A DNA stretch of 64,000 nt from Cycloclasticus sp. (GTDB lineage Bacteria; Pseudomonadota; Gammaproteobacteria; Methylococcales; Cycloclasticaceae): assembly GCA_036961325.1 (NCBI GenBank), contig JBALVF010000002.1:210733-274732 (forward strand). Direction: 5' to 3'. Both the position numbers and the translations under genes were made by a program. Below are positions 24,260-57,612 of the stretch, in pieces. The notes below the pieces were generated by a model. That model saw nothing but the letters and a program-made list of their open reading frames with translations, was not told the origin of the DNA and did no database searches. Within the stretch, counting starts at the first letter, position 1. Each line of letters starts with the position of its first letter.

Positions 24260-24262
24260 ATC

Positions 24263-24740: not shown

Positions 24741-24804
24741 TTATAACAATTCGCTCAAGCAGGGTCGCATAAAAGACATGCGCCCCTTAGCTTAACCGTT
24801 AGAA
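24741..24804 (+). other. attC site
   Basis: R'' TTATAAC; GCT(C)AAG/CTTAGC and GGG(T)CGCAT/ATGCGCCC give two extrahelical bases; R' GTTAGAA; 64 bp. Confidence 0.92.
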
Positions 24805-24827
24805 CTCAACAATTACTAAGGCATACG

Positions 24828-26645
24828 ATGTTACTAAAATCAATAAAAGCAAAGAATATTCTTCCCATTCTGCGTTTTGATGTCGAAAACTTGTCAGATG
24901 TCGTAGTCCTTGCTGGCCGGAATGGTGTCGGTAAAACCAGACTATTGCAGGCACTAATTAATGGGTTCCAGAATCCGGTAGGGCAGAAAAATATTCAATA
25001 TATAATTGAAGCCACTAATGATGAAGAAAGATCGAAATGGGGTAAAAGTATATTAGATACTGGTATACCTCAAGATGCGCAGCTGCTCCAATCTACTCTC
25101 CATGAAAATAGGTTTAGAAGAAATTGGCGCGGAAGTGTAATAAATATTGAAAGTGACAGATCAATACAGAAAATAAACCCATATGCATTCACGTTCGACG
25201 CTGTCGACCCAGATAAGGAGCAAATTGGCTGGAATTTTATGCTTGGCGGAATGAGGAGTAGGCATCAAGATACCCTTCATTCTATTTTCAGAAAAGTTCA
25301 TGCACATAGAAACAAAATCTCGACCTTGGCAGAGAAGTTAATCCGTGAAGGAAAGTCTTCTATGGAGCTCAACTTCCCTGATCCATTGGAAAAGTTTAAG
25401 CATGCTTTCAGGCGGTTGCTGGCTCCAAAAGAGCTTCTTGATGCGGATTTACAATCGCAACAATTAAAATATTCTATTGGTGAGCAGGAGTTATTGTTAA
25501 ACACACTTAGCTCAGGAGAAAGAGAGGTAGTCAATATAGTTTTTGATTTTATTCTCAGAAACCCAAGCGATTGCATAGTATTTTTTGATGAGCCAGAGAT
25601 TCACCTGCACCCTGAATTAAGTTACAAACTTATTCAAACATTGACAAGTCTTGGTGATAACAACCAGTTTATATTTTGTACTCACTCACCTGACATAATA
25701 ACTGCTTCACTCGAACATTCGGTTATATTTGTTGCCCCGCCGCAGGATGCTAATACTAATCAAGCAATTACAGTATCCGAGGATGATGAAACAAATCGAG
25801 CACTTAAACTTCTAGGTCAATCTGTAGGGGTAATTGCTTTAGGCAAAAAAATCGTTCTGATAGAAGGTGAGCACGCAAGTCTAGATAAACAAACATATGG
25901 CGCTATTTTGAAAGATAACTTCCCAGAGTTAGTTTTAGTTCCTAGCGGCGGAAAAGGGCTTATTAAATCATTTTCTCTTCTTCTAAAAGAAGTGCTAGAA
26001 AAGTCTATTTGGGGAGTAGAATTTTTTATGTTGTGTGACAGGGATGTCATTCCTTTGTCCAAAACTGAAGCGGAGCTCGGAAATGGTAGATTTCAAACCA
26101 TACGAAAATATCATCTCGAGAACTACTTTTTAGATGCGGACGTTATTTCAAAGGTATTTCAAAATATAGAACCGGAAGGATCTTGGCTTCGTTCATCAGA
26201 ATCTATAAACGATAAGTTGAAAGAAATTGCTAAAGAAATGGTCTCATATTCTGTGGCCTTGTATGCAACTGCCTATTTTCGCGAACAAGTAGGCAATATC
26301 GACTTAATGCCAAAAGATTGCCATAAAAAAACGAAAGAAGAGCTAGTTGCTCTGATATTAGCAAAGTCAGAGTTAGAACTGCAGCGAGTGGGACATAGTA
26401 TGACGCCAGATGTCATATCGAATTATGTAAATGATACTGCACAAAAATTGGAAGAAAGTGTGGGCAATGGTGATGGCTGGAAGGATCTGATTCCTGGGAA
26501 GAGAATATTAAACGTATTTGCAAGCAAAGCTAATATTTCTGTTGGAAGATTGAAAAGAGCATATATTGTTGAGGCGGCAAAAGTTGAAAACAATCCTTTT
26601 CAAGATATTATAGACATATTCTCTGATTTCAACTCAATGGAGTGA
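24828..26645 (+). CDS. ABC-type ATPase fused to TOPRIM/DUF4435-like domain (OLD-family/fused PARIS-like; cassette)
   Basis: Walker A GRNGVGKT, signature LSSGEREV, Walker B FFDEPEIHLHP, H-loop THSP; C-terminal IEGE...CDRD...YHLENY...PGK. Confidence 0.8.
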   Translation: MLLKSIKAKNILPILRFDVENLSDVVVLAGRNGVGKTRLLQALINGFQNPVGQKNIQYIIEATNDEERSKWGKSILDTGIPQDAQLLQSTLHENRFRRNWRGSVINIESDRSIQKINPYAFTFDAVDPDKEQIGWNFMLGGMRSRHQDTLHSIFRKVHAHRNKISTLAEKLIREGKSSMELNFPDPLEKFKHAFRRLLAPKELLDADLQSQQLKYSIGEQELLLNTLSSGEREVVNIVFDFILRNPSDCIVFFDEPEIHLHPELSYKLIQTLTSLGDNNQFIFCTHSPDIITASLEHSVIFVAPPQDANTNQAITVSEDDETNRALKLLGQSVGVIALGKKIVLIEGEHASLDKQTYGAILKDNFPELVLVPSGGKGLIKSFSLLLKEVLEKSIWGVEFFMLCDRDVIPLSKTEAELGNGRFQTIRKYHLENYFLDADVISKVFQNIEPEGSWLRSSESINDKLKEIAKEMVSYSVALYATAYFREQVGNIDLMPKDCHKKTKEELVALILAKSELELQRVGHSMTPDVISNYVNDTAQKLEESVGNGDGWKDLIPGKRILNVFASKANISVGRLKRAYIVEAAKVENNPFQDIIDIFSDFNSME

Positions 26646-27610: not shown

Positions 27611-27627
27611 CCTAATGGCATATAAGC

Positions 27628-27687
27628 GTATAACAAGTCAATTAGTGCGACCGCAAAAAGCGCGTCGCCTTATTTCAAACGTTAAGT
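27628..27687 (+). other. attC site
   Basis: R'' GTATAAC, GCGAC/GTCGC stem, R' GTTAAGT; 60 bp. Confidence 0.88.
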
Positions 27688-27702
27688 ATCTAAAGGTGCA
27701 TC

Positions 27703-28389: not shown

Positions 28390-28470
28390 CAAGTTGCTGT
28401 TGTCGCCATGCTGTGCATGGCTGGGACAGCCTACACTGTGTTGCGGCAGCCCCAAAGCAATGCGTTAGGT
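28384..28470 (+). other. attC site
   Basis: R'' ACTTAAC; GCT(G)TTG/CAAAGC; R' GTTAGGT; 87 bp. Confidence 0.88.
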
Positions 28471-34900: not shown

Positions 34901-35097
34901 TTATGCTCAGTAGTGGAATAGGATCAGATGTAACGCACCGTATAGCCGCTCCGATGTTGGGCGGTATGCTGACTGTATTGATATTAAACCTGCTGGTACT
35001 GCCGGTTATTTATAGCTTTGTCTTGCAACACCAGGAAAGCCAAAAAAACAAATGGTTAACATTGGAAAATGATAACGGTGAAAAGCTCAGGGGATAG
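31912..35097 (+). CDS. cusA: CusA/CzcA-family heavy-metal RND permease (Cu/Ag type)
   Basis: DAIPDLSDVQVI, NIMSLGGIAI, FMPPLDEGD, NAWTMPIKTRIDMLSTG (CusA Met motif). Confidence 0.93.
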   Translation: MINAIINASIKDRFMVLIATLIIAVAGLWSYNNTFLDAIPDLSDVQVIVFTKYSGQAPQVVEDQVTYPLTTAMLSVPHSKIVRGYSFFGLSFVYIIFEDGTDMYWARSRVLESLNFVSSKLPEGVTPTLGPDATGVGWVYEYALVDKTGQHDLAQLRSIQDWYLRYPLQTVAGVAEVASVGGFVKQYQVEVDPNALQAYGIPLSKVKHAIKRSNNDVGGRLIEMAETEYMVRGLGYIQSLEDLNSIPVGVDSNGTPIRLQDIANVHIGPELRRGVVELNGEGEVAGGVVIMRYGENALSTIQGVRKKLEELKQGLPAGVEIVPVYDRGNLIEGAVASLNTSLLQELAIVSLVVMLFLLHARSALVAIITLPLGILMAFIVMKFQGLNANIMSLGGIAITIGTMVDGAIVMVENAHKHLEQSAAKKGADLTIDERWTAIANASREVGPALFFSLLIITVSFLPIFTMQAQEGRMFSPLAFTAAYAMAASAILAVTLVPVMMGYFIRGKIISERKNPVNRLLHAVHTPLLKMAMQWRKVTVVLALGLLVLTLYPYSKLGSEFMPPLDEGDILYMPTTFPGISITKAKELLQQTDKIIKTFPEVHHVFGKVGRAETATDAAPLSMIETTISLKPKEEWPDPDKTTKQLMSEMDQAIKFPGLANAWTMPIKTRIDMLSTGIKTPVGIKVSGPDLNVLQTISGEIERAMKTIPETTSAFGDRAVGGYYLDFDINREAASRYGLTVGDVQDVIQSAIGGMNITETVEGLERYPVNLRYPRELRDDFESLKRVLIPTPTGSQIPLVQVAELNFRRGPPVIKSENSRPNAWIYVDINTSDIGGFVTKAKRVLAENVTIPAGYTVVWSGQFEYMERAAKRLKIVVPATLVIIFLLLYIHFRNAIEPIIVMLALPFGVIGGIWMIYLNDYNLSVAVYVGFIALAGMAAEIGVLVLSFIDMEIAKRRTASSEPLSTAEIREATHSATSMRVRPVVMTAVSTMAGLVPIMLSSGIGSDVTHRIAAPMLGGMLTVLILNLLVLPVIYSFVLQHQESQKNKWLTLENDNGEKLRG

Positions 35098-35266
35098 GCA
35101 TATTTATTAATGCTTAAGTGTCGAGGAGGTTTCCAGCTGGAAGAATTACACGGCAATTATAAGATGACGGGTATCTTAACGTTTAGTAATACATAGACTT
35201 TAGGCTGATGCTAATTACCCTTTGTGTTGTAGAACTTTAAAGGCGAAGTGAATTGCTATCCGTGTG

Positions 35267-35902
35267 TTATATATCAAGTAGATTTTCTTGTAACGCCAAA
35301 TGCACTAATTCGGCAGTGGTGGTCACATTGAGACTTTTTTTAGTTTTACTCAAATAATTGGATACGGTTTTTTTAGATAAATGCATTTCGTTAGATATCT
35401 CACCAATGGATTGCCCCCTGGTTAAGCGTAAAAAAACGTCAAACTCCTTGGAGGTGAGCGCTGATAATGCAGAAATCTTTTGAGGGCCAAGCTGGCTTAA
35501 TGCAATTTTATCGGCTATATCAGGACTGATAAATCTCTTGCCTTTTACAACCTCAGCTAAAGCTTGCATTAGAATAACCCCACTACTTGACTTGGTAACA
35601 TACCCAGTAGCGCCTGCCTTGAAACACCTTTCAACCAGACTTTGGTGATCATACAATGAGGCAACTAAAATATACGCCTTTTCCTGGTGGTTGATAATGC
35701 GATGGATAGAACTCGCTATTCCTATGCCAGGCATCATCACATCAATGACGACTAGATCAGGTAGAAATTCTTTAAAAAGATTAACGGCTTCCTCGCCATT
35801 ACAAGCCTCAGCTACGACTTCGTGTAAGCCTGTCGATTCAAAAAGGCGTCGATAACCTGATCGAACTATTGGGTGGTCATCTGCAATTAGTATACGACTC
35901 AT
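35267..35902 (-). CDS. NarL/LuxR-family response regulator
   Basis: ADDHPIVR, IDVMMPG receiver domain; C-terminal LuxR-type HTH. Confidence 0.9.
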   Translation of the reverse strand: MSRILIADDHPIVRSGYRRLFESTGLHEVVAEACNGEEAVNLFKEFLPDLVVIDVMMPGIGIASSIHRIINHQEKAYILVASLYDHQSLVERCFKAGATGYVTKSSSGVILMQALAEVVKGKRFISPDIADKIALSQLGPQKISALSALTSKEFDVFLRLTRGQSIGEISNEMHLSKKTVSNYLSKTKKSLNVTTTAELVHLALQENLLDI

Positions 35903-35924
35903 TCCTTTACAATATTCCTATTTA

Positions 35925-37115
35925 TCAAACATAAGGTAACTGTACATGAATTTGAGCCCCACCTGCTGACGAGTCTCCACGATACAATGAACCGCCCAGT
36001 GATCTCACTCGCTCATTCATATATTTTAAGCCTAAACAACGGTTGTTGAATGTTTTAGGAAATCCACAGCCGTTATCAGAAATAACTAAGTCAACAATAA
36101 AACCACTACCTTTATTATTAATGAATTCTTTTGTAATCAACTTATTGTCTTGTTGTTCCATTTTATAAATGGAGAAGGCTGCTTGAACTTCTGTCGCCCC
36201 TGAGTGCCGAGTAATATTAGTCAACGCTTCTTGTGTCACGCGATATAGCATTTCTTTAATGTCTAAAGGCAGATCAGAATCTACCTTAGCGTTTAAAGTT
36301 ATTTGACCTATAACATTTCGATTCCTCTTATTCCAATCAGAAAATAAATCTTGAAGCATTTCATTAACTGTCAAATGTAAAATAACAGTGCGTGGATTTA
36401 GTCGGATGCTGATATTCCTGATAGTTTTAAGAAATTTTTCGGATAGTTTTATAATGTCGTTGATAGTTTCAGTTTCAGAAGCTGATCGCCCATTTTCCTG
36501 AATAGCTAAAAAATCTGCATTTAACTTAATTGCCGTACCTATTTGTCCTATTTCATCGTGCAAATCCTGAGACAGCTGTCGTCGTTCGTTATCTGTCGCG
36601 ATAACGATATCCTGAGTGAGTTTTTTATTTTCTTCGAGTAGCTTACCTAAAGACAACGTCGTATTTTTTAAAGCGGTGACGTCAACGGATGTTTTTATGG
36701 CGACAAACCTTCCATCATCCCAACGCATAACTTGATCGCAGCATTGAAACCATTTTTTTTTCATTAAGTTTAGGTAAGTCGAGTGGCGGATTCCCGTTGG
36801 TTGGCCTTTCTCGTTTATTAAGTTTTTATTCGTACAAAATTCACAAACTTTATTTTGTCCTTTTTGTAGCACCTTCCAGCATTTCTTTCCAACAACGGAA
36901 CCAAATAAATCGACGATTTTTTTGTTGGCAAAAATTATTTCTTCAGTCATTAGATCAACTATATAAATAGGTTCGTCGATAGTATCTAAGATATTTTTTA
37001 ATAACGTATTATCGGATGATTTATCACTCTGGGTTTTACTGTTTAAAGCCGTTAAGGTGTTTTTTTCCAGAAGACCAATAAGTTCTTTTTTTGATAGTGC
37101 TGAATAGAGTGTCAT
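35925..37115 (-). CDS. Soluble PAS-domain sensor histidine kinase (HisKA_3)
   Basis: SQDLHDEIGQ H-box, EALTNITRH, SDNGCGF; no TM segment; PAS contains KKCW...VCEFC. Confidence 0.88.
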   Translation of the reverse strand: MTLYSALSKKELIGLLEKNTLTALNSKTQSDKSSDNTLLKNILDTIDEPIYIVDLMTEEIIFANKKIVDLFGSVVGKKCWKVLQKGQNKVCEFCTNKNLINEKGQPTGIRHSTYLNLMKKKWFQCCDQVMRWDDGRFVAIKTSVDVTALKNTTLSLGKLLEENKKLTQDIVIATDNERRQLSQDLHDEIGQIGTAIKLNADFLAIQENGRSASETETINDIIKLSEKFLKTIRNISIRLNPRTVILHLTVNEMLQDLFSDWNKRNRNVIGQITLNAKVDSDLPLDIKEMLYRVTQEALTNITRHSGATEVQAAFSIYKMEQQDNKLITKEFINNKGSGFIVDLVISDNGCGFPKTFNNRCLGLKYMNERVRSLGGSLYRGDSSAGGAQIHVQLPYV

Positions 37116-37371
37116 TTTTTTAGTTAACCTTTAAATCATAGAATTACAGCGATTTTTAATCGTTTGGTTTTTAATTTAGTAACTCTTGTTGGAATTTTAA
37201 GTTAAATATTAAGACAAAAATTTTATTTTAAGGCCGAAAAAGTTAAATGGTTGAATTCATGAGAAATGCCCGTATTAAATTGGGAATACTTCCCATGTTT
37301 ATTTTTTAGTTGCTCATCTATGCTTTCAATGTGATTTAAGTATTTTAAATGTATCAAAAGGAGAGGATTGT

Positions 37372-37476
37372 ATGATTTTAAAAAACAAAAAATATTGCAG
37401 AGTGGCAGGTAACTTTATCGCTCATAAGTACCTATCTTCATTGTCGGGCTTATCTCTTAAAACACTTTATCTTTAA
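37372..37476 (+). other. 34-codon ORF in frame with the downstream GGDEF-EAL gene, separated from it by one TAA
   Basis: AAAAGGAGAGG RBS, ATG at 37372, TAA at 37474, then 4 codons to ATG at 37489 in the same frame. Confidence 0.6.
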
Positions 37477-37488
37477 GTAGCATTTATT

Positions 37489-39141
37489 ATGCTGACTGCG
37501 GCTGTTTTTTTTGAGGAATCATCATTAGGGATGATGTTTACCGATAAAAATATGAACATCACACTAGTTAATGAAGCGTTTACTAATATAACTGGGTATT
37601 TAGCCGAAGAAGCCATTAACCAGAAACCCACAATACTTAATTCAGGTAAACAAGACAGGGTTTTTTATCAACAGATGTGGTATTCCATCAATTCCAATGG
37701 ATATTGGACAGGTGAAATATGGAATAGACGGAAAAACGGTGAAATTTATCCGGAGCTGATGACAATAAACGTAATTTATAGAGATGACGGCGAACAAAAA
37801 GGATTTATTGCAGTTTTTTCGGATATTTCTAATGTAAAAAGTGGGGGGAATAATCTTGGGTATTTGGCAAGTCACGACCCATTAACGGGCCTGCCTAATA
37901 GGCTTTTTATAAGTTCCCAATTTGAAACGGCGATAGAAAGGGCGAAGCGAAACGACTCAGTGTTAGCGCTACTTTTTATCGATCTTGATAATTTTAAACC
38001 AGTGAATGATGTCTTTGGTCATTCAGTCGGTGACACAGTATTACAGAAGGTTGCCGAGCGTCTTGTCGCGCAATTAAGAAAATCGGAAACGGTATCCCGT
38101 TGGGGCGGGGATGAGTTTATTGTTGTATTAGAAGATATAGAATCAGCTGCGAATATATCGTTGGTCGCGGCTAAATTATTAAACGCTATCAGTAGTCCTT
38201 TTATTGTTGATCGGAATGAAATATTTATCGGCTGTAGTATCGGTGTTTCAGTGCTATCTGAAAATTTACAGAGTAATGAATCTGATGCTTTAGTTCGAAA
38301 TGCAGGCACGGCCATGTATCAAGCTAAAAAAGATGGGGGTAATAAATATCACTTTTATGATGAGGAGATGGAGAAGGCGCTACATCACAGGTTGTTTTTA
38401 GAAAGAGAATTACACAATGCTATAGAAAACGACGAACTTGAGCTCCATTATCAAGCAAAGTTCTGTACGAAAACGCAAAAAATCCAAGGGGTAGAGGCAT
38501 TAATACGCTGGTTACACCCAGTGAAAGGATTCATTCCTCCCGATCAGTTTATCCCTATTGCCGAGGAGACAGGCCTAATTATTCCAATAGGGGATTGGGT
38601 GATTCGCACAGCTTGCCAGCAAGCACTAATCTGGATAAAAGAAGGAACACCAGTTCAGGTCGCAGTGAATGTCTCTGCAAGGCAGCTCAATAGCGGGAAT
38701 CTTCATGAGGAGATCGAGTCTATTTTGTCAGAAACGGGCTTGCCTCCACACTTGCTAGAAATAGAATTAACAGAGAGCCTGCTGATAAAGAATGTTTCGG
38801 AAACTGTTTTTTTACTGGATAAGTTAACAGAGCTCGGTGTCTCCATAGCGATTGATGACTTTGGTACAGGTTTCTCATCGCTGAGCTATTTAACGCAGTT
38901 TCCTGTAAAAAAACTAAAAATAGATCGTTGTTTTGTTCAGAAAATCTCTTCAGATAGCGCTGATAGGCGTTTGGTAAATGCCATTGTAGCGTTGGCACAT
39001 TCAATCGACCTTGAAGTGGTAGCGGAAGGAATCGAAACAACGGAACAATTGACGTATTTTAAAGAAATTAAATGTGACTTCGTTCAGGGCTTTTTATTAG
39101 CGAAACCCGTTGAGGCTGAATTAATGAAATTCACCGCATGA
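37489..39141 (+). CDS. PAS-GGDEF-EAL c-di-GMP turnover protein
   Basis: PAS/PAC, HDPLTGLPNR, WGGDEF, EALIRW, DDFGTGFSSLSYL. Confidence 0.92.
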   Translation: MLTAAVFFEESSLGMMFTDKNMNITLVNEAFTNITGYLAEEAINQKPTILNSGKQDRVFYQQMWYSINSNGYWTGEIWNRRKNGEIYPELMTINVIYRDDGEQKGFIAVFSDISNVKSGGNNLGYLASHDPLTGLPNRLFISSQFETAIERAKRNDSVLALLFIDLDNFKPVNDVFGHSVGDTVLQKVAERLVAQLRKSETVSRWGGDEFIVVLEDIESAANISLVAAKLLNAISSPFIVDRNEIFIGCSIGVSVLSENLQSNESDALVRNAGTAMYQAKKDGGNKYHFYDEEMEKALHHRLFLERELHNAIENDELELHYQAKFCTKTQKIQGVEALIRWLHPVKGFIPPDQFIPIAEETGLIIPIGDWVIRTACQQALIWIKEGTPVQVAVNVSARQLNSGNLHEEIESILSETGLPPHLLEIELTESLLIKNVSETVFLLDKLTELGVSIAIDDFGTGFSSLSYLTQFPVKKLKIDRCFVQKISSDSADRRLVNAIVALAHSIDLEVVAEGIETTEQLTYFKEIKCDFVQGFLLAKPVEAELMKFTA

Positions 39142-39279
39142 TTTTAAAAATTCTAATGGAATGAAATATCGTCAATGGGGACTAACTGACGGCATAGAAA
39201 GGTCATGGAATAGTGTCCTTTTGAATAGATAGAATAAAAATAGCTCTAGAAATAATTGATCACTTAAAAAGGAAAATAT

Positions 39280-40857
39280 GTGAAAAATAATCAACCTGTA
39301 ACGGGTGTAAATAAAGATTTTAAGGCAGACGTTAACCTCCTTTCAACGACTAATCTAAAAGGCAGCATAACGTATACAAATCCTGAGTTTACTGAAATTA
39401 GCGGTTTTAGCGAGGATGAGTTAAAAGATAAAAATCATAATATAGTCCGCCACCCGGATATGCCTCCAGCTGCCTTTGAGAATTTATGGACTGACATTAA
39501 AGCCGGTAAACCATGGATGGGCATAGTAAAGAATCGTTGTAAAAATGGTGATCATTATTGGGTAGATGCATATGTGATGCCTATTCAGCAAAATGGCGTA
39601 ACCGTTGAATACCAGTCCGTGCGATTCAAACCAAAACCAGAAGCGGTTGGACGTGCAACGCAATTATATAAAAAATTACAAAAAAAAAGAGGAGTCCGAG
39701 ATAAGCTAAATATCCAGTTGAGTTTAAAAAACAAACTGCTTTTAAGTGCTTTTATATCACTACTGCCTGTATTCATTACCACTCAAGTAGAAAACCTTGT
39801 TCAGTACAGCCTGTTAGGGTTTGTGACTTCCTTGTTGTGTATTCTGGCAAGTAATATATGGTTAATGGGTCCTTTTGACGGCCTGGTTAAGGAAGCAAAA
39901 GAGATCTTTGATAACCCTTTAATGAATCGAGTTTATACAGGCCGTAATGATGAGTTCGGGCAGATACAACTCGCACTAAAAATGCAACATTCGCAAATTG
40001 ATTCGATAGTTGGTCGTTTGAGCGATACGACGCGAATTCTGGCTGATATTGCCATTGAAACGGCCGCTAATTCAAGCCAGGCGCATCAAGGCGCATTAAC
40101 CCAACATAACGAAATCTCAGAGGTCGCAACGGCGATGAAGGAGATGGCAAACACAGTACAAGAGGTTGCTAAGAATGCTTCAATGGCGGCCGAATCAACT
40201 GAGCTTGGGTTAAAAGAAGCAGCGAATGGAAATGAAGTCGTTGAGGGTACGATAGCGTCGATCAATGTGCTGGCTGAAGATGTACAAAAAGCGGCTGGAG
40301 TGGTTGAAAATTTATCAGAGTACAGTTCGAATATTGCTGATATTTTGGGCGTCATAAAAAGTATCGCGGAACAAACAAATCTGTTGGCGTTAAATGCTGC
40401 TATTGAAGCAGCAAGGGCTGGTGAGCATGGACGTGGTTTTGCAGTGGTAGCTGATGAGGTTCGTACGTTGGCGGGGCGAACACAAGGTTCAGCTCTTGAA
40501 ATTGAGGCGATGATCGAGCAGCTGATGACAAAAACTCATGACGCTGTAAAAGTGATGACTGAAAGTCGTGAGAAAGCTGAAGATAGTGTTCGACAAGCAA
40601 CTAAGGCGGGTGAGGCACTAGAAACTATCACCACGTCGATTGCTGGTATTGGCAGATTGAATCAACATATTGCTACAGGATCTGAAGTACAAAGTTCTGT
40701 TGCTGATGAAATAGATAAAAATATTGAAAATATTAGTCAACTAGCTAATGAAACAGCGGAAGGCGCAAAGAAAAGTGTCAGCTCTACAAAACAAATGGTT
40801 GAAACCATTCAAAGCTTGAATAATCTGGTGTCGCAGTTTACTAATAAATCTGCATAG
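39280..40857 (+). CDS. aer: Aerotaxis receptor (PAS + MCP)
   Basis: Aer-type PAS ([14 protein letters not shown]...GDHYWV), short membrane anchor, MCP core [21 protein letters not shown]. Confidence 0.9.
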
Positions 40858-40962
40858 CGGGTTTTGTAGTCGGCTTAACTAGTTAATAGGCGTCCTACTG
40901 TGCCGTGGCAGATGGTAACAATTGTCGTAGCCGAATACCTCCAGCCTACAGGTAATGAGTTC

Positions 40963-42666
40963 TTATTTAATGAGAATAAATATGATATTTGCCAATAGGC
41001 TTAATAAAGCAATGCTTTTCCAGAAGATTAAAGGGTTGCGCTCTATTAATGGCGTGTGCTTTTTTTCGATAAACAGCTTGTTCGGATAGGACAGGTCGTG
41101 GATAAATTCAGATATTTCTTCATATCGCTTTGATGGGTTTCTCTTGACGATTTTTCTAATGGCTCCGTCCACCCATAGGGGAATATCAGGGTTGAATTGT
41201 TGTGCGGGGATGTATTGCAATTTACTCAGTGCTTTTTCGCCGTATTTCTCTCCGAAAGGCAGTTTTCCGGTGAGCATTTCATAAGTAATGACGCCGAGAG
41301 AAAAAGCATCTGAACGTGTGCTCGGCTGTTGCCCCATCAGGTATTCCGGTGCCGTGTAGTGTTGTGTTCCCAATAGGTTGAGGCGTAGAACGGGAGTCGC
41401 TATTTCTTCGATACCGGCAATTTTAGTCGAGCCGAAGTCTATAATGATGACCGTACCCTGGGTGTCGATAATGATGTTTTCAGGCTTCAGATCCTGATGA
41501 ATCATTTCTTTGCTATGAAATGCGCGTAGCCCCCGTGCTATCTGGCGCACAATGCCTCTTACATCGTGCACGCTGGGTAGTGGGTTGTCGCTCATCCAGT
41601 GCCTTAAGGTTTGGCCTTCGATATACTCTGTTACGTAATATAGGAATTGTCTGGGACGGGTCTGCTCGATAATTTTTAAAACATGGTTATTATCCAGGCG
41701 TCGACCAACCCATTCTTCATGCACGAACATATCGAGGTAAGTGGGGTCGTCAACGTAATTGATAGAGGGTGTTTTAATCACCACATGAGCGCCGGTATCT
41801 TCATCGGTTGCAAGATACAGCTGGGTGCGATTACTGGCGTGCAGTTCACGTTCAATACGATATCCATCCAGGATCATGCCGGCGTTTAAATCAGGCGGGA
41901 AGGGTAGCTCGGTTAATTTACGGTAGACTTCCTGATCATTAATTTGCGGTAGTTGATTGAAGCGAACGACCTGACAACTGACGTTGTCATCGCTGCCCGC
42001 TTTCATCGCTAAGGATGTGATTTCACGCGCAGCGCGGTCTAAATTGTTGGCGTTATCATTAACCTTCTCCAACATAAGACTATCGCTAACAAACTCGTGC
42101 ACGCCGTCGGTGGTTAATAAAAAGGTATCACCTTGTTCGAGTAAAAAATTGCTGTAGTCGATTTCTAAGTGCAGGTCGATACCCATGGCGCGCGTCAGAT
42201 AGTTCTTATCTTTAGAGACCCAAAAACGATGATCCTGGGTTAAACATTCTAGTTTAGCTTGCCGTATCCGGTAGATCCGTGTGTCACCGATATGAAATAG
42301 GTGTACCGTTGAGGACTTAACGATCAGAGCGCTCATCGTCGTGGCTAGCCCTTTATAAGCGTGGCTACTTTGCTGCGCCATTCCTAACATCCAGCGATTG
42401 GTCGCCACCAGCACTTTTTGTGCGGATGTTTTTACCGTCCAGGAGTCGGGGGTGCAGTAATAATCGCTCAATAAACTTTTAACGCACGTTTCACTCGCCA
42501 GTTTGCCCGCTTCGCAACCGCTGACACCATCGGCGATAACAATGACGATGCCTTTTTGTTCTAAAACGGGAGACTCGGGCAATAAGACGCCGTAACTATC
42601 CTGGTTCTCCTCTTTAACCCCTTTATCAGAAGATTGTCCGAGATCAATTAAAGCGTTTGATTGCAT
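40963..42666 (-). CDS. Bifunctional PP2C phosphatase / Ser-Thr protein kinase
   Basis: NQDS, ADGVSG, HIGDTR, TTDGVH, DDNVS (PP2C); VVIK, HQDLKPEN, DFG, APE (kinase). Confidence 0.92.
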   Translation of the reverse strand: MQSNALIDLGQSSDKGVKEENQDSYGVLLPESPVLEQKGIVIVIADGVSGCEAGKLASETCVKSLLSDYYCTPDSWTVKTSAQKVLVATNRWMLGMAQQSSHAYKGLATTMSALIVKSSTVHLFHIGDTRIYRIRQAKLECLTQDHRFWVSKDKNYLTRAMGIDLHLEIDYSNFLLEQGDTFLLTTDGVHEFVSDSLMLEKVNDNANNLDRAAREITSLAMKAGSDDNVSCQVVRFNQLPQINDQEVYRKLTELPFPPDLNAGMILDGYRIERELHASNRTQLYLATDEDTGAHVVIKTPSINYVDDPTYLDMFVHEEWVGRRLDNNHVLKIIEQTRPRQFLYYVTEYIEGQTLRHWMSDNPLPSVHDVRGIVRQIARGLRAFHSKEMIHQDLKPENIIIDTQGTVIIIDFGSTKIAGIEEIATPVLRLNLLGTQHYTAPEYLMGQQPSTRSDAFSLGVITYEMLTGKLPFGEKYGEKALSKLQYIPAQQFNPDIPLWVDGAIRKIVKRNPSKRYEEISEFIHDLSYPNKLFIEKKHTPLIERNPLIFWKSIALLSLLANIIFILIK

Positions 42667-52400: not shown

Positions 52401-52440
52401 AAAACTCGCAAGCGGAATCTATTGGGTGGTATTGTTAGTA

Positions 52441-52471
52441 CATCGAATGAATTTGCATTCGATGGATTTTT
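52441..52471 (+). terminator. Probable terminator of the nir/nas operon
   Basis: CATCGAATG-loop-CATTCGATG followed by GATTTTT. Confidence 0.5.
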
Positions 52472-52547
52472 AGTTGTCAGCTAACAGAGGGTAACAGTAA
52501 AGTAATTACACAGAAAATTCGTTCCTGTTTTAGTTAAATTAAGAGGG

Positions 52548-53231: not shown

Positions 53232-53235
53232 ATTC

Positions 53236-53255
53236 GTCTAACAAACCACTCAAGT
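53236..53255 (+). other. Truncated attC (left arm only)
   Basis: GTCTAAC-AAACC-ACTCAAGT just after the DUF1780 stop; no right arm; GGGGTC follows at 53272. Confidence 0.55.
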
Positions 53256-53324
53256 ACTTCGAGAAAGAAACGGGGTCCAACTCGAATTTATTTTATAAAA
53301 TATTAGCTGTTAATTCATAGGGGT

Positions 53325-53620
53325 ATATTCGCTGCCGCGAGGGCGATCATTTCTTTTGTATGCCCATCACCTAAAGGTATAAGTCTCATAACTGCGGATA
53401 AAAAACATCCGCCTATTCGGCTAAAAGCTACGAACCAAAGAAAAAGGCACCCTGATCGCAACAATCAGTCATTTTTCGGGTTCGCGCTAAACTCGCTACG
53501 CTCAAACAACGCACTCTCTATTCCGAAAAACAACTAATTGCTAGCGCGATAAAGGGGAGAGAAAAGCCGTTAACTGGTCGGTTTTTTTTGATTTAACTCC
53601 CCTTTTACCTCACCGAAGAA
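53325..53620. repeat. Structured intergenic repeat-like element
   Basis: Contains TTTCTTTTG...AACCAAAGAAAAAGGCACCC and AACTCGCTACGCTCAAAC motifs that I recognise from dispersed proteobacterial repeats; internal GCGGAT/ATCCGC hairpin; boundaries approximate. Confidence 0.45.
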
Positions 53621-53818
53621 TAGATACTTTTTCCAACCGCTGAGGAACTCGCCCTTTAGGGTGAAACCTGATACTGAATACGACGCAAAGCAAATTGTTT
53701 ATTAAAAAGGTAATTAATTTACAAGGGCTGTTAGAATTTTAAAAAGTCGTGGAATTTGAAGCAATGATGGATTAGATTAAGCAGGGAGCTAACGAATTAT
53801 GTGTGAAAAGGGAAATAC

Positions 53819-54013
53819 ATGGATGCTGCTTTAAGCAATTTTGCCGCGACAATAATATCCTTCGTCGTTTTAATTGTAGGTGTATATGTGGTAATTACAT
53901 TTACCGTTCATTATGGTTTGAAAAATGTAATTACAAACAGAAAATTAAGAAACGACATAATTAAGCTAGCATCAGTTATTGCTTTCGGTGCGATTGCAAT
54001 GTCGATATATTAG
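53819..54013 (+). CDS. Small two-TM hypothetical protein
   Basis: 64 aa with AAAGGG RBS and two hydrophobic segments. Confidence 0.55.
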   Translation: MDAALSNFAATIISFVVLIVGVYVVITFTVHYGLKNVITNRKLRNDIIKLASVIAFGAIAMSIY

Positions 54014-54127
54014 GAAGCAACACATTTAAAAAAATGACAGGCAGATTAAATGCGATAAGGAAAAATCTGTAGCTCCGCCAGACTCCTTGTCTTTTGCGTA
54101 ATACTAAAAAATAATAAAGGGATGTAA

Positions 54128-54904
54128 ATGGATTTCACACCGCTAATTAATCAAGTCATAAGCATGCTCTGGTATCTGCTTCCTATTGGAGTAATTGTTG
54201 CACTAGTTAAATCACCCTGGTTCAAGGGCGTTGTGGGCGAAGCTATCGTAAATCTAAGTGCAAAGCTTTTTCTCGATAAAAAGAAATATCATCTTGTAAA
54301 AAATGTGACTTTGCCAACTGAAGACGGCAGCACACAAATAGATCATATTATTATTTCAAAGTATGGAATATTTGTTGTTGAAACAAAGAATATGAAAGGT
54401 TGGATATTTGGAGGCCCTAATCAAAAAATGTGGACACAAAAGATTTACAAACATTCTAGTAAATTTCAAAACCCGTTACACCAGAATTATAAACATACCA
54501 AAACGTTACAATCATTATTAGAGCTAAGCGATGAGCAAATATTCTCTGTTGTCGTATTCGTTGGTGACAGCACGTTTAAAACCGAAATGCCAGATAACGT
54601 AACCTACGGCAGAGGCTATATCCGATTTATACACTCCAAAACACAAGTTCATTTAAGCGACCAACAAGTTAAAGAAATAACAACTAAAATTCAATCCGGT
54701 AGGCTAACGCCCTCATTTAAAACAAACCGGGAGCATGTAAAGCACGTTAAATCGATCATAGCCGAGAAAGATAAAGTCCAAACTTGCCCTAAATGCGGTA
54801 GTAATATGTTGTTAAGAGATGTTAAAAAAGGGCAAAATGCAGGCAATAAATTTTGGGGTTGCTCGACGTTTCCAAAATGTAGGGGCGTTGTAAATGTTAC
54901 GTAA
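54128..54904 (+). CDS. NERD-domain nuclease-related protein with C-terminal topoisomerase-type C4 zinc ribbon
   Basis: TQIDHIIISKYGIFVVETKNMKG; CPKCG...FWGCSTFPKC. Confidence 0.9.
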   Translation: MDFTPLINQVISMLWYLLPIGVIVALVKSPWFKGVVGEAIVNLSAKLFLDKKKYHLVKNVTLPTEDGSTQIDHIIISKYGIFVVETKNMKGWIFGGPNQKMWTQKIYKHSSKFQNPLHQNYKHTKTLQSLLELSDEQIFSVVVFVGDSTFKTEMPDNVTYGRGYIRFIHSKTQVHLSDQQVKEITTKIQSGRLTPSFKTNREHVKHVKSIIAEKDKVQTCPKCGSNMLLRDVKKGQNAGNKFWGCSTFPKCRGVVNVT

Positions 54905-54940
54905 TCATTACTTCAAAACGTTTGTGTAAAGATACACACG

Positions 54941-55017
54941 TGATATTTGGGGTCAGAGTAAAAACTATTCAATGATCTCTATATTTACTCAATAATTTTT
55001 ACTCTGACCCCAATTAC
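54941..55017. mobile_element. 77-bp MITE-like element, copy 1
   Basis: Identical to 56726..56802; 18-bp perfect inverted repeat TTGGGGTCAGAGTAAAAA. Confidence 0.8.
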
Positions 55018-55088
55018 CTGATTATCGGACTTCGTTTAACGGGCGATTACAAAGAATTATTTACAGTCTCTAGCAATTAGTTACTCGA

Positions 55089-56450
55089 CTAGTTTTCTGT
55101 TTCGGGTGCCGGAGCCTCGAGGACATTAGTTTTAATGAGCCAGCGCTCCATCAGCTTGGCGGCAACCAGGTCACCGCAAACATTAACAGACGTTCGGCTC
55201 ATATCAAGAATACGGTCGACACCCATAATCAGAACAATACCCGTTGTTGGGATACCGGCTGTCTCTAGTACCATGGCAAGAATGATAATCCCGACACCAG
55301 GTGTTCCCGGTGAACCGATGGATGCGCCAACGGCAGTGACGATAACCAACAGTAATGCACTCGTACTCAGGTCTACACCATAGACTTGCGCCAGAAATAT
55401 GGTTGCAACACCCTGGTACAATGCCGTGCCATTCATGTTGATAGTGGCACCCAGCGGGATCACGAACTGGGAAACTGAAGGACTTACCCCAAGTTTTTCC
55501 TCTGCTGTCTTAATAGAAAGCGGCATAACAGCGGCAGAGCTGGAGGTGGAGAATGCCAATAACAGAACGTCCCGGGTATTGCGTAAGAAATGCAAGGGTG
55601 ACTCTCTGGCAAAAACATATATGAGCAACAGGTACATTGACGTAAGTATCGCCAGACCGAGTAACACAGTACCGACATATACACCCATTCCCAGTATCGC
55701 ATTTAACCCTATTTTGGTGGTGAGTTGCGCCATCAGTCCGAACACGGCAATTGGCGCAAGCCGCATCGCCCAGCCGACTACCGTCATACAGACTTCCTGA
55801 AGCGAAGCCATCAAATCAAGTAAGGGCTTGGACTGGTCGGCCTTCATCATTACGAGTGCAACGCCCATGATAGCGGCAAAGAGTACAACCTGTAGCATTT
55901 GCCCTTCAACCATAGATGTTAACGGGTTGGTAGGGAGTATAGTCACCAGCGTTTGCGGTAGCTCGGACAGGGTAGGCATTGTTGCATGCGCAGAAGGGGG
56001 TGCTGCCCCACTGGTTGCCAATGTAGTTTTTAGACTGCCGGCGTCAACAAAGCTACCGGGATTGATCAGTTTGGCAACACCCAGGCCAATGATGATGGCA
56101 ATGGTGGTGGTAATAACAAAATAAACCACGACACCGATTCCCATCTTGCGTAACTGCTCAAAACTTTCACTGGATGTTAGACCACGCACGACAGAGGCAA
56201 AGATTAATGGCATCACGATCATTTGGATAAGGGTCAGGAACAATTGCCCCGGTAATGCCAGCCAGTTTCCCACTGTGGTTGCGGTTTCGGCTGGAAGCCA
56301 TCCTGTTGTAGGACCAATTAGCATGCCTGTTGCAATACCCAGCAACATACCTATTAGTACTTTTAACCATAGGCGTCCTTGTACAAGTTTGGTCAGGTGT
56401 TTGCTGAGATAGTTGAACGGGTTATTCGCTGTAATATATTCAATAATCAT
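55089..56450 (-). CDS. Dicarboxylate/amino acid:cation symporter (DAACS/GltP family)
   Basis: FSTSSSAAVMP, GATINMNGTALY, GVDRILDMSRT motifs. ATG at 56450 preferred. Confidence 0.92.
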   Translation of the reverse strand: MIIEYITANNPFNYLSKHLTKLVQGRLWLKVLIGMLLGIATGMLIGPTTGWLPAETATTVGNWLALPGQLFLTLIQMIVMPLIFASVVRGLTSSESFEQLRKMGIGVVVYFVITTTIAIIIGLGVAKLINPGSFVDAGSLKTTLATSGAAPPSAHATMPTLSELPQTLVTILPTNPLTSMVEGQMLQVVLFAAIMGVALVMMKADQSKPLLDLMASLQEVCMTVVGWAMRLAPIAVFGLMAQLTTKIGLNAILGMGVYVGTVLLGLAILTSMYLLLIYVFARESPLHFLRNTRDVLLLAFSTSSSAAVMPLSIKTAEEKLGVSPSVSQFVIPLGATINMNGTALYQGVATIFLAQVYGVDLSTSALLLVIVTAVGASIGSPGTPGVGIIILAMVLETAGIPTTGIVLIMGVDRILDMSRTSVNVCGDLVAAKLMERWLIKTNVLEAPAPETEN

Positions 56451-56725
56451 GTGCTTGCCTGTATATTTTTGTGTGGAGACACTAGATGAAATCAATAGCA
56501 TAACATAACACTATGTTATAGATTAACGACCTAGCAGCTGCCTTAGGGGGCCGCATTGAAAAATGAAAACGAATTTTTCTACAGCTGAAAGTCTGTTCAC
56601 AAGATTGTAGAAGCTGGTAAACCAGATGGCGGAAATAATTATTGGAAAAACGCGTAGGCCGAAGAAGAAGCCCGGCGATAGACATTAATTTTACTCAGGT
56701 ACTTATTTCATAAGGACTATTGTTA

Positions 56726-56802
56726 TGATATTTGGGGTCAGAGTAAAAACTATTCAATGATCTCTATATTTACTCAATAATTTTTACTCTGACCCCAATT
56801 AC
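56726..56802. mobile_element. 77-bp MITE-like element, copy 2 (direct orientation)
   Basis: Identical to 54941..55017. Confidence 0.8.
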
Positions 56803-56843
56803 TTCACTTCACTACATAGTCGCCTTTGATGGCGGCGTAATGC
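56803..56843 (+). other. attC right-arm remnant
   Basis: CTTCACTACATAGTCGCCTTTGATGGCGGC-GTAATGC, directly after the element and 12 nt before the next gene; core GTT reads GTA. Confidence 0.5.
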
Positions 56844-56855
56844 AAAAGGTAAATT

Positions 56856-57299
56856 ATGAGACTTTGGTCAATACATCCAGGTTATTTAGATTCAAAAGGT
56901 TTAGTAGCCTTGTGGCGAGAGGGGTTATTGGCACAAAATGTGTTGCTCGGCAAGACAAAGGGTTACAAGAATCATCCACAGCTGAAGAGGTTCAAAAGTA
57001 CTGGCAATTCTGAAGTAGCTATTTGTAGCTATCTTTCTTGTGTTGCGGATGAGGCGGATAATAGAGCCTATAATTTTAACAGGGCAAAAATAGTCCAGAA
57101 TACCAAATGCGAACTTATGCTAGTAACCGAAGGGCAGCTGAATTACGAATTCAAGCATTTGTTGAATAAATTAAAGGTGCGTGACCCAAGTCGATATGAA
57201 GAATTGCAGTCAATTAAAAAAATAAAAACACATCCTTTATTCACACAAGTAGATGGTGGCATAGAAGAGTGGGAAGTCATTAATGATGAACCCCAATAA
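56856..57299 (+). CDS. Pyrimidine-dimer DNA glycosylase/endonuclease V family protein
   Basis: MRLWSIHP...GLVALWREGLLAQ...GYKNHPQL. Confidence 0.85.
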   Translation: MRLWSIHPGYLDSKGLVALWREGLLAQNVLLGKTKGYKNHPQLKRFKSTGNSEVAICSYLSCVADEADNRAYNFNRAKIVQNTKCELMLVTEGQLNYEFKHLLNKLKVRDPSRYEELQSIKKIKTHPLFTQVDGGIEEWEVINDEPQ

Positions 57300-57612
57300 T
57301 ATTTTTGATTTAATCCCTAAAAACCTTGATAAGGAACTCGTTGAGACGCTTATTCAGCAGGGCGATGTAAAAATTGAGCGCATAGTATCGACAGGCCAAT
57401 CTTCACCGGAATTTGGTTGGTACGACCAGGCACTTGTAGAATGGGTGATGGTTTTAAGTGGAGAGGCTATTATCGCGTTTGAAGGGGAGGAGGACTGCCA
57501 CCTTGTGGCGGGTAGTTACCTGAATATTCCAGCACACACGAAACATAAAGTTAAATGGACGAGTCCAACGGTTGAAACCGTATGGTTAACAGTTCATTAT
57601 CCTGCTGATTAA
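57283..57612 (+). CDS. Cupin-domain protein
   Basis: IERIVSTGQSSP...WYDQ...EWVMVLSG...IPAHTKHKVKWT. Confidence 0.85.
   Translation: MMNPNNIFDLIPKNLDKELVETLIQQGDVKIERIVSTGQSSPEFGWYDQALVEWVMVLSGEAIIAFEGEEDCHLVAGSYLNIPAHTKHKVKWTSPTVETVWLTVHYPAD

What the first reader, a model, noticed from the sequence alone, without database searches (positions are those of the whole stretch)
54941..56802. Two identical 77-bp inverted-repeat elements bracket a symporter gene: a transposase-free composite unit
The copies are 100% identical, directly oriented and 1785 bp apart, each with an 18-bp perfect internal inverted repeat. The passenger (DAACS symporter plus its upstream region) is antisense to all neighbours. 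Outside the pair lie a degenerate attC-like left arm and an attC right arm, as if the unit had landed inside one attC. Perfect identity implies a recent event; no target-site duplication is evident.
Basis: partly seen in the sequence, partly recalled or inferred. Interest (0 to 1): 0.7.

Follow-up and report, generated by a model that had tools for sequence, protein, structure and literature searches.

The report
Relocated symporter between two hairpin repeats
A transporter gene in a marine Cycloclasticus bacterium has been copied about 14 kb from its usual place into a small hairpin-forming repeat, which now sits on both sides of it; the repeat belongs to a little-studied family tied to a single-strand-DNA (Y1/HUH) transposase, so this is a rare natural hint that such repeats can capture genes.

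Summary
Two 100% identical 77-bp direct copies lie at 54941-55017 and 56726-56802, each with a perfect 18-bp stem, and they flank a DAACS symporter gene.

The repeat (E) is not an orphan. Its arm GGGGTCAGAGTAAAAA occurs in at least 120 loci of many gammaproteobacterial lineages. In 4 of 4 loci examined, the same arms bracket a 227-230-aa Y1/HUH transposase gene. This is the published TIRYT/"TIRtron" arrangement, whose TIR motif GGGGWSAS fits GGGGTCAG. E is therefore the gene-less hairpin form of that unit.

The passenger really moved:
- At least five related Cycloclasticus assemblies have the symporter between a PP2C-kinase gene and acrB, without repeats.
- The window copy still carries the last 24 nt of that kinase gene at one end.
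- At the other end it carries the last 52 nt (intact end) of an IS256-family IS.

A colinear relative has one E at the same NERD/glycosylase site and the symporter at its old locus. The best reading is therefore insertion at a resident E, with E ending up on both sides (circle/translocatable-unit-like or template switch). It is not a composite transposon landing in an attC. There is no TSD, integrase or attC fold. No Cycloclasticus TIRYT gene was found, and the joining mechanism is inferred.

The parts
54941..55017 (+). Left copy of hairpin repeat E. Arms at 54947-54964 and 54996-55013, 31-nt loop. Functional borders are about GATAT(54942)...TTAC(55017).
   Evidence: Its left border coincides with the end of the NERD module shared with L140.
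55019..55070 (+). Fragment of an IS256-family insertion sequence: last 17 codons of the transposase plus an intact right terminal inverted repeat (...ATTTACAGTCTC). The IS end abuts the symporter segment.
   Evidence: The same 52 nt are preceded in other strains by ...NRFMIEFED coding sequence and followed by 4 different flanks. Contigs of about 1.3 kb at 4-5x single-copy depth end here. The C-terminus and IRR resemble an annotated Vibrio IS256-family IS. Unique in the window.
55072..56725 (-). Relocated segment S: 17 nt downstream of the stop codon, symporter CDS (55089..56450), its native 252-nt upstream region with a terminator-like hairpin (56656-56673), and the last 24 nt of the neighbouring PP2C-kinase gene (56703-56726, last base shared with E).
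   Evidence: 97-99.2% identical to the kinase-symporter-acrB locus of L123-L127 and L131-L133. Junctions read. Pfam. Terminator-like site.
56726..56802 (+). Right copy of hairpin repeat E. Corresponds to the resident copy found upstream of the glycosylase gene in relatives.
   Evidence: Single E at the same place in L134 (98.7%), L137 and X5 (100%).
56803..56812 (+). TTCAC TTCAC, a 5-nt tandem duplication immediately right of E. It is single in X5 and replaced by 25 nt in L134/L137.
   Evidence: 5 letters left out at 56801 in X5.
54128..54904 (+). Left neighbour: NERD nuclease-related protein with a Top1-type zinc ribbon. Truncated at codon 108 and fused to E in X5.
56856..57299 (+). Right neighbour: pyrimidine-dimer DNA glycosylase (Pyr_excise), followed by a cupin gene (57283..57612).
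35047..40996 (.). Ancestral locus of the symporter (between acrB and the PP2C-kinase gene). Here it is occupied by a 5.9-kb low-GC islet (response regulator, PAS histidine kinase, GGDEF-EAL, MCP).

Best explanation
**What E is.** E is the gene-less hairpin form (left arm fused to right arm) of a TIRYT/TIRtron unit. That unit is a small element in which a RAYT-like Y1 (HUH) single-strand-DNA transposase gene sits between terminal inverted repeats beginning GGGGTCAG.

**What happened.** One E copy is resident between the NERD module and the glycosylase gene in this Cycloclasticus lineage. In the window genome a 1.7-kb piece was inserted at that resident E, and E is now present on both sides. The piece consists of:
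- the end of an IS256-family IS that had inserted next to the symporter;
- the symporter gene with its own upstream region;
- the last 24 nt of the adjacent kinase gene.

The piece was copied from the lineage's own (or a very close relative's) kinase-symporter-acrB locus about 14 kb away. That old locus was separately overwritten by a diverged allele carrying a signalling-gene islet.

**Shown.** The identity and family of E, the origin and direction of the move, the resident single E in relatives, and the break points lying exactly at the feet of the hairpin.

**Inferred.** The joining chemistry. Most likely a one-E circle (E + IS fragment + symporter, 1785 nt) recombined with the resident E, or hairpin-foot cleavage and rejoining by the Y1 enzyme. 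Either would work like an IS26 translocatable unit or an integron cassette rather than like a composite transposon.
For: **E family**
- Among 132 copies, the 5 positions outside the arms and 2 positions inside are complementary above expectation, and there is no direct TSD.
- Arms are intact at orthologous sites whose flanks are only 73-87% identical.

**Link to the transposase**
- A Y1_Tnp ORF in L050 is flanked by E hairpins.
- Three homologues (61-74% identical) in other genomes each lie between a left arm 85-100 nt upstream and a right arm 3-14 nt downstream.
- The HUH motif and the RYIELNP tyrosine are conserved.
- The published TIRYT TIR motif GGGGWSAS fits GGGGTCAG (PMC3733652, PMC6006769).

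**Relocation**
- Searches show the symporter at the kinase-acrB locus in relatives.
- The kinase 3' 24 nt and the IS end sit at the borders of S.
- Third-codon identity of the symporter to relatives is 98.2%, against a background of 91-97% and 69-81% for the replaced acrB/kinase/narK.

**Resident E**
- X5 has a contig NERD(1-108)-A-E-glycosylase-cupin, with S at the kinase locus on a contig that also reaches the DmsC-like gene.
- L134 and L137 have one E upstream of the glycosylase gene.
- At least 7 different left contexts and 4-6 right contexts abut E within +/-2 nt of GATAT... and ...TTAC.
Against: - No TIRYT gene could be shown for Cycloclasticus. Only 64 kb of the genome plus about 100 kb of relatives' contigs were readable.
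- No relative shows E next to the symporter at its old locus, so the origin of a one-E circle is hypothetical.
- Junction microhomology is only 1-2 nt, which also fits illegitimate joining or template switching.
- Unitigs cannot phase across the 77-nt repeat, so a free circle, a tandem array or the linear form cannot be told apart.
- The single-E form in X5 could in principle be a deletion derivative.
- TIRYT activity has, as far as the searchable literature shows, never been tested.
Confidence: 0.6

Rival explanations
1. MITE-type composite transposon. Two E copies first flanked the symporter elsewhere, and the whole E-S-E block was moved in trans by the cognate transposase into this site.
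For: The copies are identical and directly oriented, and the passenger demonstrably moved. E belongs to a transposase-associated family. MITE pairs are discussed as able to form composite transposons (PMC6382973).
Against: A single E already occupies exactly this site, with the same right flank, in X5, L134 and L137. There is no TSD. No relative has E at either side of the symporter at its old locus. One border of S is an IS256 end, not E.
Confidence: 0.12
2. No dedicated enzyme. The hairpin stalls replication. The nascent strand, after copying E, switched template to the IS/symporter region 14 kb away, copied 1.7 kb and switched back to the start of E (a templated insertion). Alternatively, RecA recombination between 77-bp repeats did the work.
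For: Both E copies are 100% identical and there is no TSD. Only 1-2 nt are shared at both novel junctions. The source lies on the same chromosome in the same orientation. Stuttered partial arms and tandem half copies next to E in many genomes look like slippage products.
Against: Many independent rearrangements in related strains end precisely at the intact feet of E. That fits site-specific cleavage better than stalling. A long-range 14-kb double switch is unusual in bacteria (own knowledge). RecA recombination needs a pre-existing second E next to S, which is not seen.
Confidence: 0.2
3. Two unrelated steps. The symporter segment arrived next to the resident E through IS256-family activity or illegitimate recombination, and a second E later inserted between NERD and the IS fragment.
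For: An intact IS256-family end abuts S. The IS is multicopy and active in these populations, with 4 different flanks. IS256-family elements are known to build composite transposons (own knowledge, e.g. Tn4001).
Against: Only 52 nt of the IS remain, and its outward-facing end (not an inward pair) borders S. The other border of S abuts E directly with no IS trace. A second insertion would have to hit exactly the NERD-module border and delete 1.25 kb of IS.
Confidence: 0.06
4. Assembly artefact: a mis-join at a repeat in a metagenome-derived contig.
For: Repeats of 77 nt break short-read graphs. The source appears to be a metagenome.
Against: Unitigs from three runs carry E(30 nt)-IS'-S-E(30 nt), and NERD-E (L121, L122, L139). 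Both novel junctions are therefore real sequence. Only the order NERD-E-(S)-E-glycosylase versus a separate circle is unphased.
Confidence: 0.02

Closest known systems
TIRtrons / TIRYT (TIR-associated tyrosine transposases) and their TIR repeat families (Di Nocera et al. 2013, PMC3733652; subclass 2.1 TnpA_REP of Quentin et al. 2018, PMC6006769)
   Same: A Y1/HUH transposase gene of about 230 aa flanked by long terminal inverted repeats with the motif GGGGWSAS (here GGGGTCAG). The TIRs are also dispersed in the genome as singles, dimers and clusters.
   Different: The papers describe moderately abundant repeats in a few genomes. Here the same 18-nt arm is shared across several orders and is conserved at orthologous sites. 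A dimer pair also brackets a relocated gene, and that behaviour is not described there.
REP / REPIN-RAYT systems (Bertels & Rainey 2011, PMC3116915; Bertels et al. 2017, PMC5581495)
   Same: Extragenic hairpin doublets whose sequence also flanks a Y1 transposase gene. No TSD, vertical persistence, clustering and nesting.
   Different: There is no GTAG tag. A single arm is not itself a palindrome. The transposase scores below the NCBIfam REP_Tyr_transpos cut-off (69.7 vs 80).
IS26 translocatable units (Harmer et al. 2014, PMC4196232)
   Same: Works alike: passenger plus one copy of the element, preferentially joined next to an existing copy. This gives two direct copies and no new TSD.
   Different: IS26 is an 820-bp autonomous DDE element. 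E is a 77-bp gene-less hairpin of a Y1/HUH family, and no circle has been observed here.
MITE-bounded composite structures (e.g. MITEAba12 paper, PMC6382973; integron mobilization units and Tn3-derived TIME pairs, own knowledge)
   Same: Two identical miniature inverted-repeat elements flank a passenger gene.
   Different: Those elements derive from DDE transposons and leave target-site duplications. Here there is no TSD and a resident copy pre-exists.
Integron gene cassettes / attC sites
   Same: A hairpin-forming site with conserved ends and a variable centre marks the borders of exchangeable modules in a strain-variable region.
   Different: No R''/R' core sites, no IntI, no array. The joined flanks do not fold as an attC.

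Membership tests
TIRtron / TIRYT repeat family | Y1 transposase with an HUH motif and a catalytic tyrosine | tested here: met
   PF01797 at 6e-12 to 3e-15 for four proteins. Conserved NH(I/V)HLL and RYIELNP.
TIRtron / TIRYT repeat family | The gene is flanked by long terminal inverted repeats rather than by REP stem-loops | tested here: met
   L141-L143 have a left arm 85-100 nt upstream and a right arm 3-14 nt downstream; the IR in L143 is 26 nt and perfect. In L050 the gene is flanked by whole E hairpins.
TIRtron / TIRYT repeat family | TIR carries the motif GGGGWSAS | tested here: met
   GGGGTCAG in all copies. Motif quoted from PMC3733652 and PMC6006769.
TIRtron / TIRYT repeat family | TIRs also dispersed in the genome as singles, dimers or clusters | tested here: met
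   At least 120 loci and 134 perfect dimers, plus solo and tandem arms.
TIRtron / TIRYT repeat family | C-terminal helix-turn-helix extension (subclass 2.1) | tested here: inconclusive
   About 100 aa lie beyond the Y1 domain, but there is no Pfam HTH hit even at E <= 5.
TIRtron / TIRYT repeat family | A cognate TIRYT gene in the genome that carries the window's E copies | not testable with these tools
   None in the window or in the Cycloclasticus contigs held. None at >= 80% DNA identity in four runs.
REP / REPIN-RAYT | GTAG (or CGTC) tag at one end of the repeat | tested here: not met
   No GTAG or CGTC in GATATTTGGGGTCAGAGTAAAAA (sequence).
REP / REPIN-RAYT | Each REP unit is itself an imperfect palindrome | tested here: not met
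   A single arm folds at -0.4 kcal/mol, z 0.23.
REP / REPIN-RAYT | Transposase reaches the RAYT equivalog score | tested here: not met
   NF047646 scores 69.7 bits against a cut-off of 80.
Composite (MITE- or IS-bounded) transposon | Direct target-site duplication outside the two bounding elements | tested here: not met
   The flanks ...ACACACG and TTCACTTCAC... differ. No TSD at any offset in 132 family copies.
Composite (MITE- or IS-bounded) transposon | The empty site in relatives lacks the bounding element | tested here: not met
   X5, L134 and L137 keep one E at the site.
Integron cassette / attC | attC hairpin with R''/R' cores, and an IntI integrase nearby | tested here: not met
   The joined flanks fold with z -1.15. 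No integrase among the window ORFs scanned with Pfam.
IS26-like translocatable unit (functional analogy only) | Circular passenger plus one element copy that targets an existing copy | not testable with these tools
   Only unitigs of pre-2026 runs are available, and they cannot span the 77-nt repeat.

The most novel reading that the evidence does not exclude
TIRYT hairpin repeats are active recombination sites. The Y1/HUH enzyme cuts at the feet of the hairpin and can excise 'one hairpin + neighbouring DNA' as a circle that re-inserts at another hairpin. REP-like repeats would then act as a cassette- or translocatable-unit-like gene-capture system, without a DDE transposase or an integrase.
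Probability: 0.2. Interest if true: 0.85.

Novelty: new variant of a known kind. Interest (0 to 1): 0.6.

Why it matters
REP-, REPIN- and TIR-type hairpin repeats are among the commonest non-coding repeats in bacteria. Yet whether their Y1/HUH transposases still move DNA, and whether the repeats ever mobilise genes, is largely untested. Only two papers in the searchable library even mention TIRYT.

This locus, together with its population variants, is a natural experiment:
- A functional gene with its promoter sits between two identical hairpins.
- A colinear relative has one hairpin and the gene at its old place.
- At least seven further rearrangements end exactly at the hairpin's feet.

This makes hairpin-directed gene capture directly testable by junction PCR, long reads and in vitro cleavage. 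It also supplies a very widely conserved 18-nt arm as a substrate.

Tried and rejected
1. **E as an IS256-derived MITE.** An apparent match between the E arm and an IS256-like end in L137 (TATTTGGGGTCGGAT...) turned out to be a partial E arm lying next to the true IS end GAGACTGTAAAT. This was shown by comparison with an annotated Vibrio IS256-family IS.
2. **Symporter acquired by HGT.** This was first suggested by 99% identity against 87-93% for neighbouring genes. Third-codon identities show that the diverged part is the replaced acrB-kinase-narK stretch. The background is 91-97% for nirB, nirD and phzF, and nucleotide identity in the nrt region is 98.5%.
3. **attC / integron.** No fold, cores or integrase.
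4. **Rfam.** Only sub-threshold miRNA-like hairpin noise.
5. **Plasmid and phage collections and IMG/VR.** No E.
6. **Literature search for the 16-mer.** Nothing found.
7. **A transposase recurrently adjacent to E, or a long arm...arm unit among the 120 loci.** None by clustering or arm pairing. The link appeared only when a remembered E. coli RAYT sequence was used as a tblastn probe.
8. **E pairs as general cassettes.** In E-rich genomes, pairs simply flank housekeeping genes such as thiG and gloB.
9. **Clean filled-versus-empty sites in orthologous loci.** Only replacements were found, no simple insertions.
10. **A Cycloclasticus TIRYT.** Not found.
11. **Circle evidence from depth.** The S unit is 1.2-2.3x the NERD flank, but strain mixtures confound this.
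Full report
**1. Observation**

The window holds two 77-nt direct copies, 100% identical, at 54941-55017 and 56726-56802, with a start-to-start spacing of 1785 nt.
- Each copy is a hairpin: an 18/18 complementary stem (TTGGGGTCAGAGTAAAAA / TTTTTACTCTGACCCCAA), extendable to 26 nt at 92%, around a 31-nt AT-rich loop.
- As single-stranded DNA it folds at -17.9 kcal/mol, z about -7 to -8.
- No other copy exists in the 64 kb, even with mismatches.
- Between the copies lies an intact 453-aa SDF/DAACS symporter gene on the minus strand (55089..56450). It is antisense to its neighbours: a NERD/Zn-ribbon gene (54128..54904), a pyrimidine-dimer glycosylase gene (56856..57299) and a cupin gene.
- No direct repeat flanks the pair.
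- Public unitigs from three separate runs contain both inner junctions (L121, L122), so the structure is real sequence.

**2. What the repeat is**

*Distribution and shape.*
The hits come from many gammaproteobacterial lineages: Haliea, Halioglobus, Seongchinamella, Woeseiaceae, Lysobacterales, Thiogranum, Thiohalobacter, Chromatiaceae and Pseudohongiellaceae. Single chromosomes carry up to about 25 perfect copies among the captured loci.
- Across 132 copies, the five positions outside each arm (consensus GATAT...ATATC) and the first two loop positions are complementary well above expectation. Examples are 0.77 vs 0.45 and 0.90 vs 0.51. No direct target duplication exists at any offset.
- Loops fall into subfamilies: an 11-nt TACAGGCTGTA form, a roughly 39-nt form, and the 31-nt Cycloclasticus form.
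- Copies are often nested in, or accompanied by, partial arms.
- At orthologous sites in genomes whose flanks are only 73-87% identical, the arms are intact while the loops have diverged. Both members of each such pair were retrieved because their arms are perfect, so this comparison is biased towards intact arms.
- In E-rich genomes the copies simply occupy intergenic spaces around housekeeping genes.
- Rfam, plasmid, phage and IMG/VR searches and a literature search for the 16-mer were negative.

*The link to a transposase.*
- A tblastn probe with a remembered E. coli RAYT sequence (my memory, used only as a probe) picked up a 230-aa ORF in L050.
- That ORF is a Y1_Tnp protein (PF01797). It scores 69.7 bits on NCBIfam REP-associated tyrosine transposase, below the cut-off of 80.
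- It is flanked on both sides by E hairpins.
- Three homologues, 61-74% identical and from unrelated assemblies, were fetched with their flanks. In all three, the gene lies between a left arm GGGGTCAGAGTAAAA... 85-100 nt upstream of the ATG and a right arm ...TTTTACTCTGACCCC 3-14 nt after the stop codon. In L143 the inverted repeat is 26 nt and perfect.
- HUH (NH[I/V]HLL) and the RYIELNP tyrosine motif are invariant.

*The published family.*
- This is the arrangement published as a TIRtron: a TIR-associated tyrosine transposase (TIRYT) flanked by long TIRs sharing the motif GGGGWSAS. The TIRs can also form moderately abundant repeat families arranged as singles, dimers and clusters (PMC3733652). 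It corresponds to subclass 2.1 in PMC6006769.
- GGGGTCAG fits that motif.
- E is therefore the gene-less arm-to-arm form of such a unit. The short-loop form TACAG-G-CTGTA is literally the two inner ends of the unit fused.
- E is not a canonical REP or REPIN: it has no GTAG tag, and a single arm does not fold.

**3. The passenger moved, and from where**

*Source organism and ancestral locus.*
- The symporter identifies the source as Cycloclasticus (99% to a Cycloclasticus MAG protein).
- In at least five independent related assemblies (L123-L127, L131-L133) the same segment (window 55072-56726, 97-99.2% identical) lies between a PP2C/protein-kinase gene and acrB, next to narK-nirBD-nasA. No E is present there.

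*Borders of the moved segment.*
- The window copy still ends with the last 24 nt (7 codons plus stop) of the relatives' kinase gene, identical to L132/L133. It abuts the right E copy.
- The window's own kinase gene (40963..42666) has a different 3' end.
- On the other side, 17 nt past the symporter stop codon, S abuts the intact terminus of an IS256-family IS, of which only the last 52 nt remain (55019-55070).
- Evidence for that IS: the same 52 nt are preceded in other strains by ...NRFMIEFED coding sequence. They sit at the end of roughly 1.3-kb contigs at 4-5x single-copy depth with four different outer flanks. Both the C-terminus and the IRR resemble an annotated Vibrio IS256-family element.
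- So the direction of the move is kinase-S-acrB to the present site.

*The old locus.*
- In the window, the old locus (35047-40996) holds a 5.9-kb low-GC signalling islet.
- Third-codon identities to L132 are: symporter 98.2%, phzF 94-97%, nirB 91%, narK 81%, kinase 77%, acrB 69%.
- Thus the symporter matches the genomic background, and the acrB-narK stretch is the imported, diverged part. I withdrew my earlier idea that S itself was horizontally acquired.

**4. A resident E pre-exists at the target**

- Run X5 (same assembly as L132) contains a 10.4-kb contig that reads: 64-aa ORF, NERD codons 1-108, one extra A, a single E (100% identical), glycosylase, cupin.
- The contig carrying S at the kinase locus in the same run also reaches the DmsC-like gene upstream (joint 54451 to 56727). 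That genome is colinear with the window, has one E, and keeps the symporter at its old place.
- L134 and L137 also have one E directly upstream of the glycosylase gene, with other left neighbours. In L137 the left neighbour is the first 160 nt of the same IS256-family IS, preceded by a partial E arm.
- L140 joins the NERD flank, ending at exactly 54940, to the cupin gene through 52 nt. L135 and L136 have other genes upstream of the glycosylase gene.
- In all, at least 7 different left contexts abut E within +/-2 nt of GATATTTGGGG, and 4-6 right contexts abut ...CCCCAATTAC.
- The feet of the hairpin are thus recurrent, precise break points in a strain-variable region.

**5. How it most likely works**

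*Shown.* E is a TIRYT-type hairpin. S was copied from the kinase locus. One E is resident at the site. Both novel junctions are at E's feet, with only 1-2 shared nucleotides. There is no TSD.

*Inferred.* The 1708-nt piece was inserted at the resident E in a way that leaves E on both sides. Two routes are possible:
- Preferred route: a 1785-nt unit (one E + IS fragment + S) behaving like a circle that recombines with the resident E. This is formally like an IS26 translocatable unit (PMC4196232) or an integron cassette. The cutting and joining at the hairpin feet would be done by a Y1/HUH enzyme acting on single strands. That would also explain the absence of TSDs, the half copies and the nesting seen across the family.
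- Alternative route: template switching at the hairpin, or RecA recombination.

I cannot separate these routes. No Cycloclasticus TIRYT gene was found in the little sequence available. Only unitigs, not reads, exist for the relevant runs. The S-unit unitig is 1.2-2.3x deeper than the NERD flank in the three runs holding this form. That is suggestive of extra copies but is confounded by strain mixtures.

**6.

- The composite-transposon reading is weakened by the resident E, the lack of a TSD and the IS end at one border.
- The attC idea fails. The joined outer flanks do not fold (z -1.15), and no integrase or other recombinase turned up among the window ORFs scanned with Pfam.
The near-empty site and the cognate transposase type both exist.

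**7. Comparison and novelty**

- The element family is known (TIRtron/TIRYT) but barely studied; only two papers in the library use the term.
- New here:
  - the breadth and depth of conservation of one 18-nt arm;
  - population-level evidence that its feet are active break points;
  - a gene with its promoter caught between two identical copies, together with a colinear single-copy relative.
- I rate it a new variant of a known kind, with interest 0.6.
- The boldest reading still allowed is hairpin-directed, HUH-driven gene capture as a general cassette-like system. I give it about 0.2 probability.

Noticed in passing
window 35047-40996: A 5.9-kb low-GC islet (LuxR-type response regulator, PAS histidine kinase, PAS-GGDEF-EAL, PAS-MCP) replaces the symporter at its ancestral locus. 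Break points lie inside the 3' ends of acrB and the PP2C-kinase gene. acrB, kinase and narK are much more diverged from relatives than nirB and phzF (3rd-codon identity 69-81% vs 91-97%), which suggests an imported allele.
   Followed up: partly
window 55019-55070; L137 3860-3985: Fragments of a roughly 1.3-kb multicopy IS256-family IS lie directly against E. The window has the 3' end and L137 has the 5' end (IRL plus 23 codons, MDRKEIEAFARKAAKGIKTEKD). The IS is about 4-5x single-copy depth in several metagenomes.
   Followed up: partly
window 6900-7409 and 23575-24084; island 23577-28400: A roughly 500-bp direct duplicate (92%) of the 3' end of a beta-CASP/RMMBL gene bounds a low-GC island. 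The island carries a PARIS-like fused AriAB ATPase-Toprim gene (24747..26645, PADLOC 2e-60) and a DUF2971 / PDC-S31-like gene. It looks like a defence island inserted at the gene's 3' end.
   Followed up: partly
window 52400-57300; L134-L136, L140: The stretch between the DmsC-like gene and the cupin gene is a mosaic of small modules that differ between closely related strains: DUF1780, a 64-aa membrane ORF, NERD and the glycosylase. In L140 the NERD flank joins the cupin gene through 52 nt with no glycosylase. L135 and L136 have other genes and a GTTATAA-ended imperfect palindrome upstream of the glycosylase gene.
   Followed up: partly
window 56803-56812: TTCAC TTCAC, a 5-nt tandem duplication immediately right of the right E copy. 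It is single in run X5 and replaced by 25 nt (TGGCGTCTTCTCCGTTGCGCTACGC) in L134 and L137.
   Followed up: no
L028 1228-1410; L009, L036, L049, L096: Complete E copies are accompanied by tandem half copies (L028 has 2 left arms and 4 right arms) or sit inside truncated outer arms. This suggests repeated insertion into, or next to, existing copies.
   Followed up: partly
L102 4655-4735; L014, L034, L066, L098, L112: Other small palindromic repeats sit beside E: two GGGGACAGATTTnAAATCTGTCCCC hairpins in L102, and GCGGGCCTGCCCGCGAT-type REP-like units in the JAURWS01 MAG.
   Followed up: no
runs X2/X3, contigs of 993 and 4252 nt laid on window 56727-56804: An E copy with the same arms but a different loop (13 mismatches, 3 gaps) is present at 405x depth in X2, in another context (…GGGATATTTGGG|E|TAGCTTTCATGG). 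The contig was not assigned to an organism.
   Followed up: no
L023 4225-4497: A second, distant Y1_Tnp-like ORF (27-32% identical to the TIRYTs) lies 2.5 kb from an E copy in another MAG.
   Followed up: no
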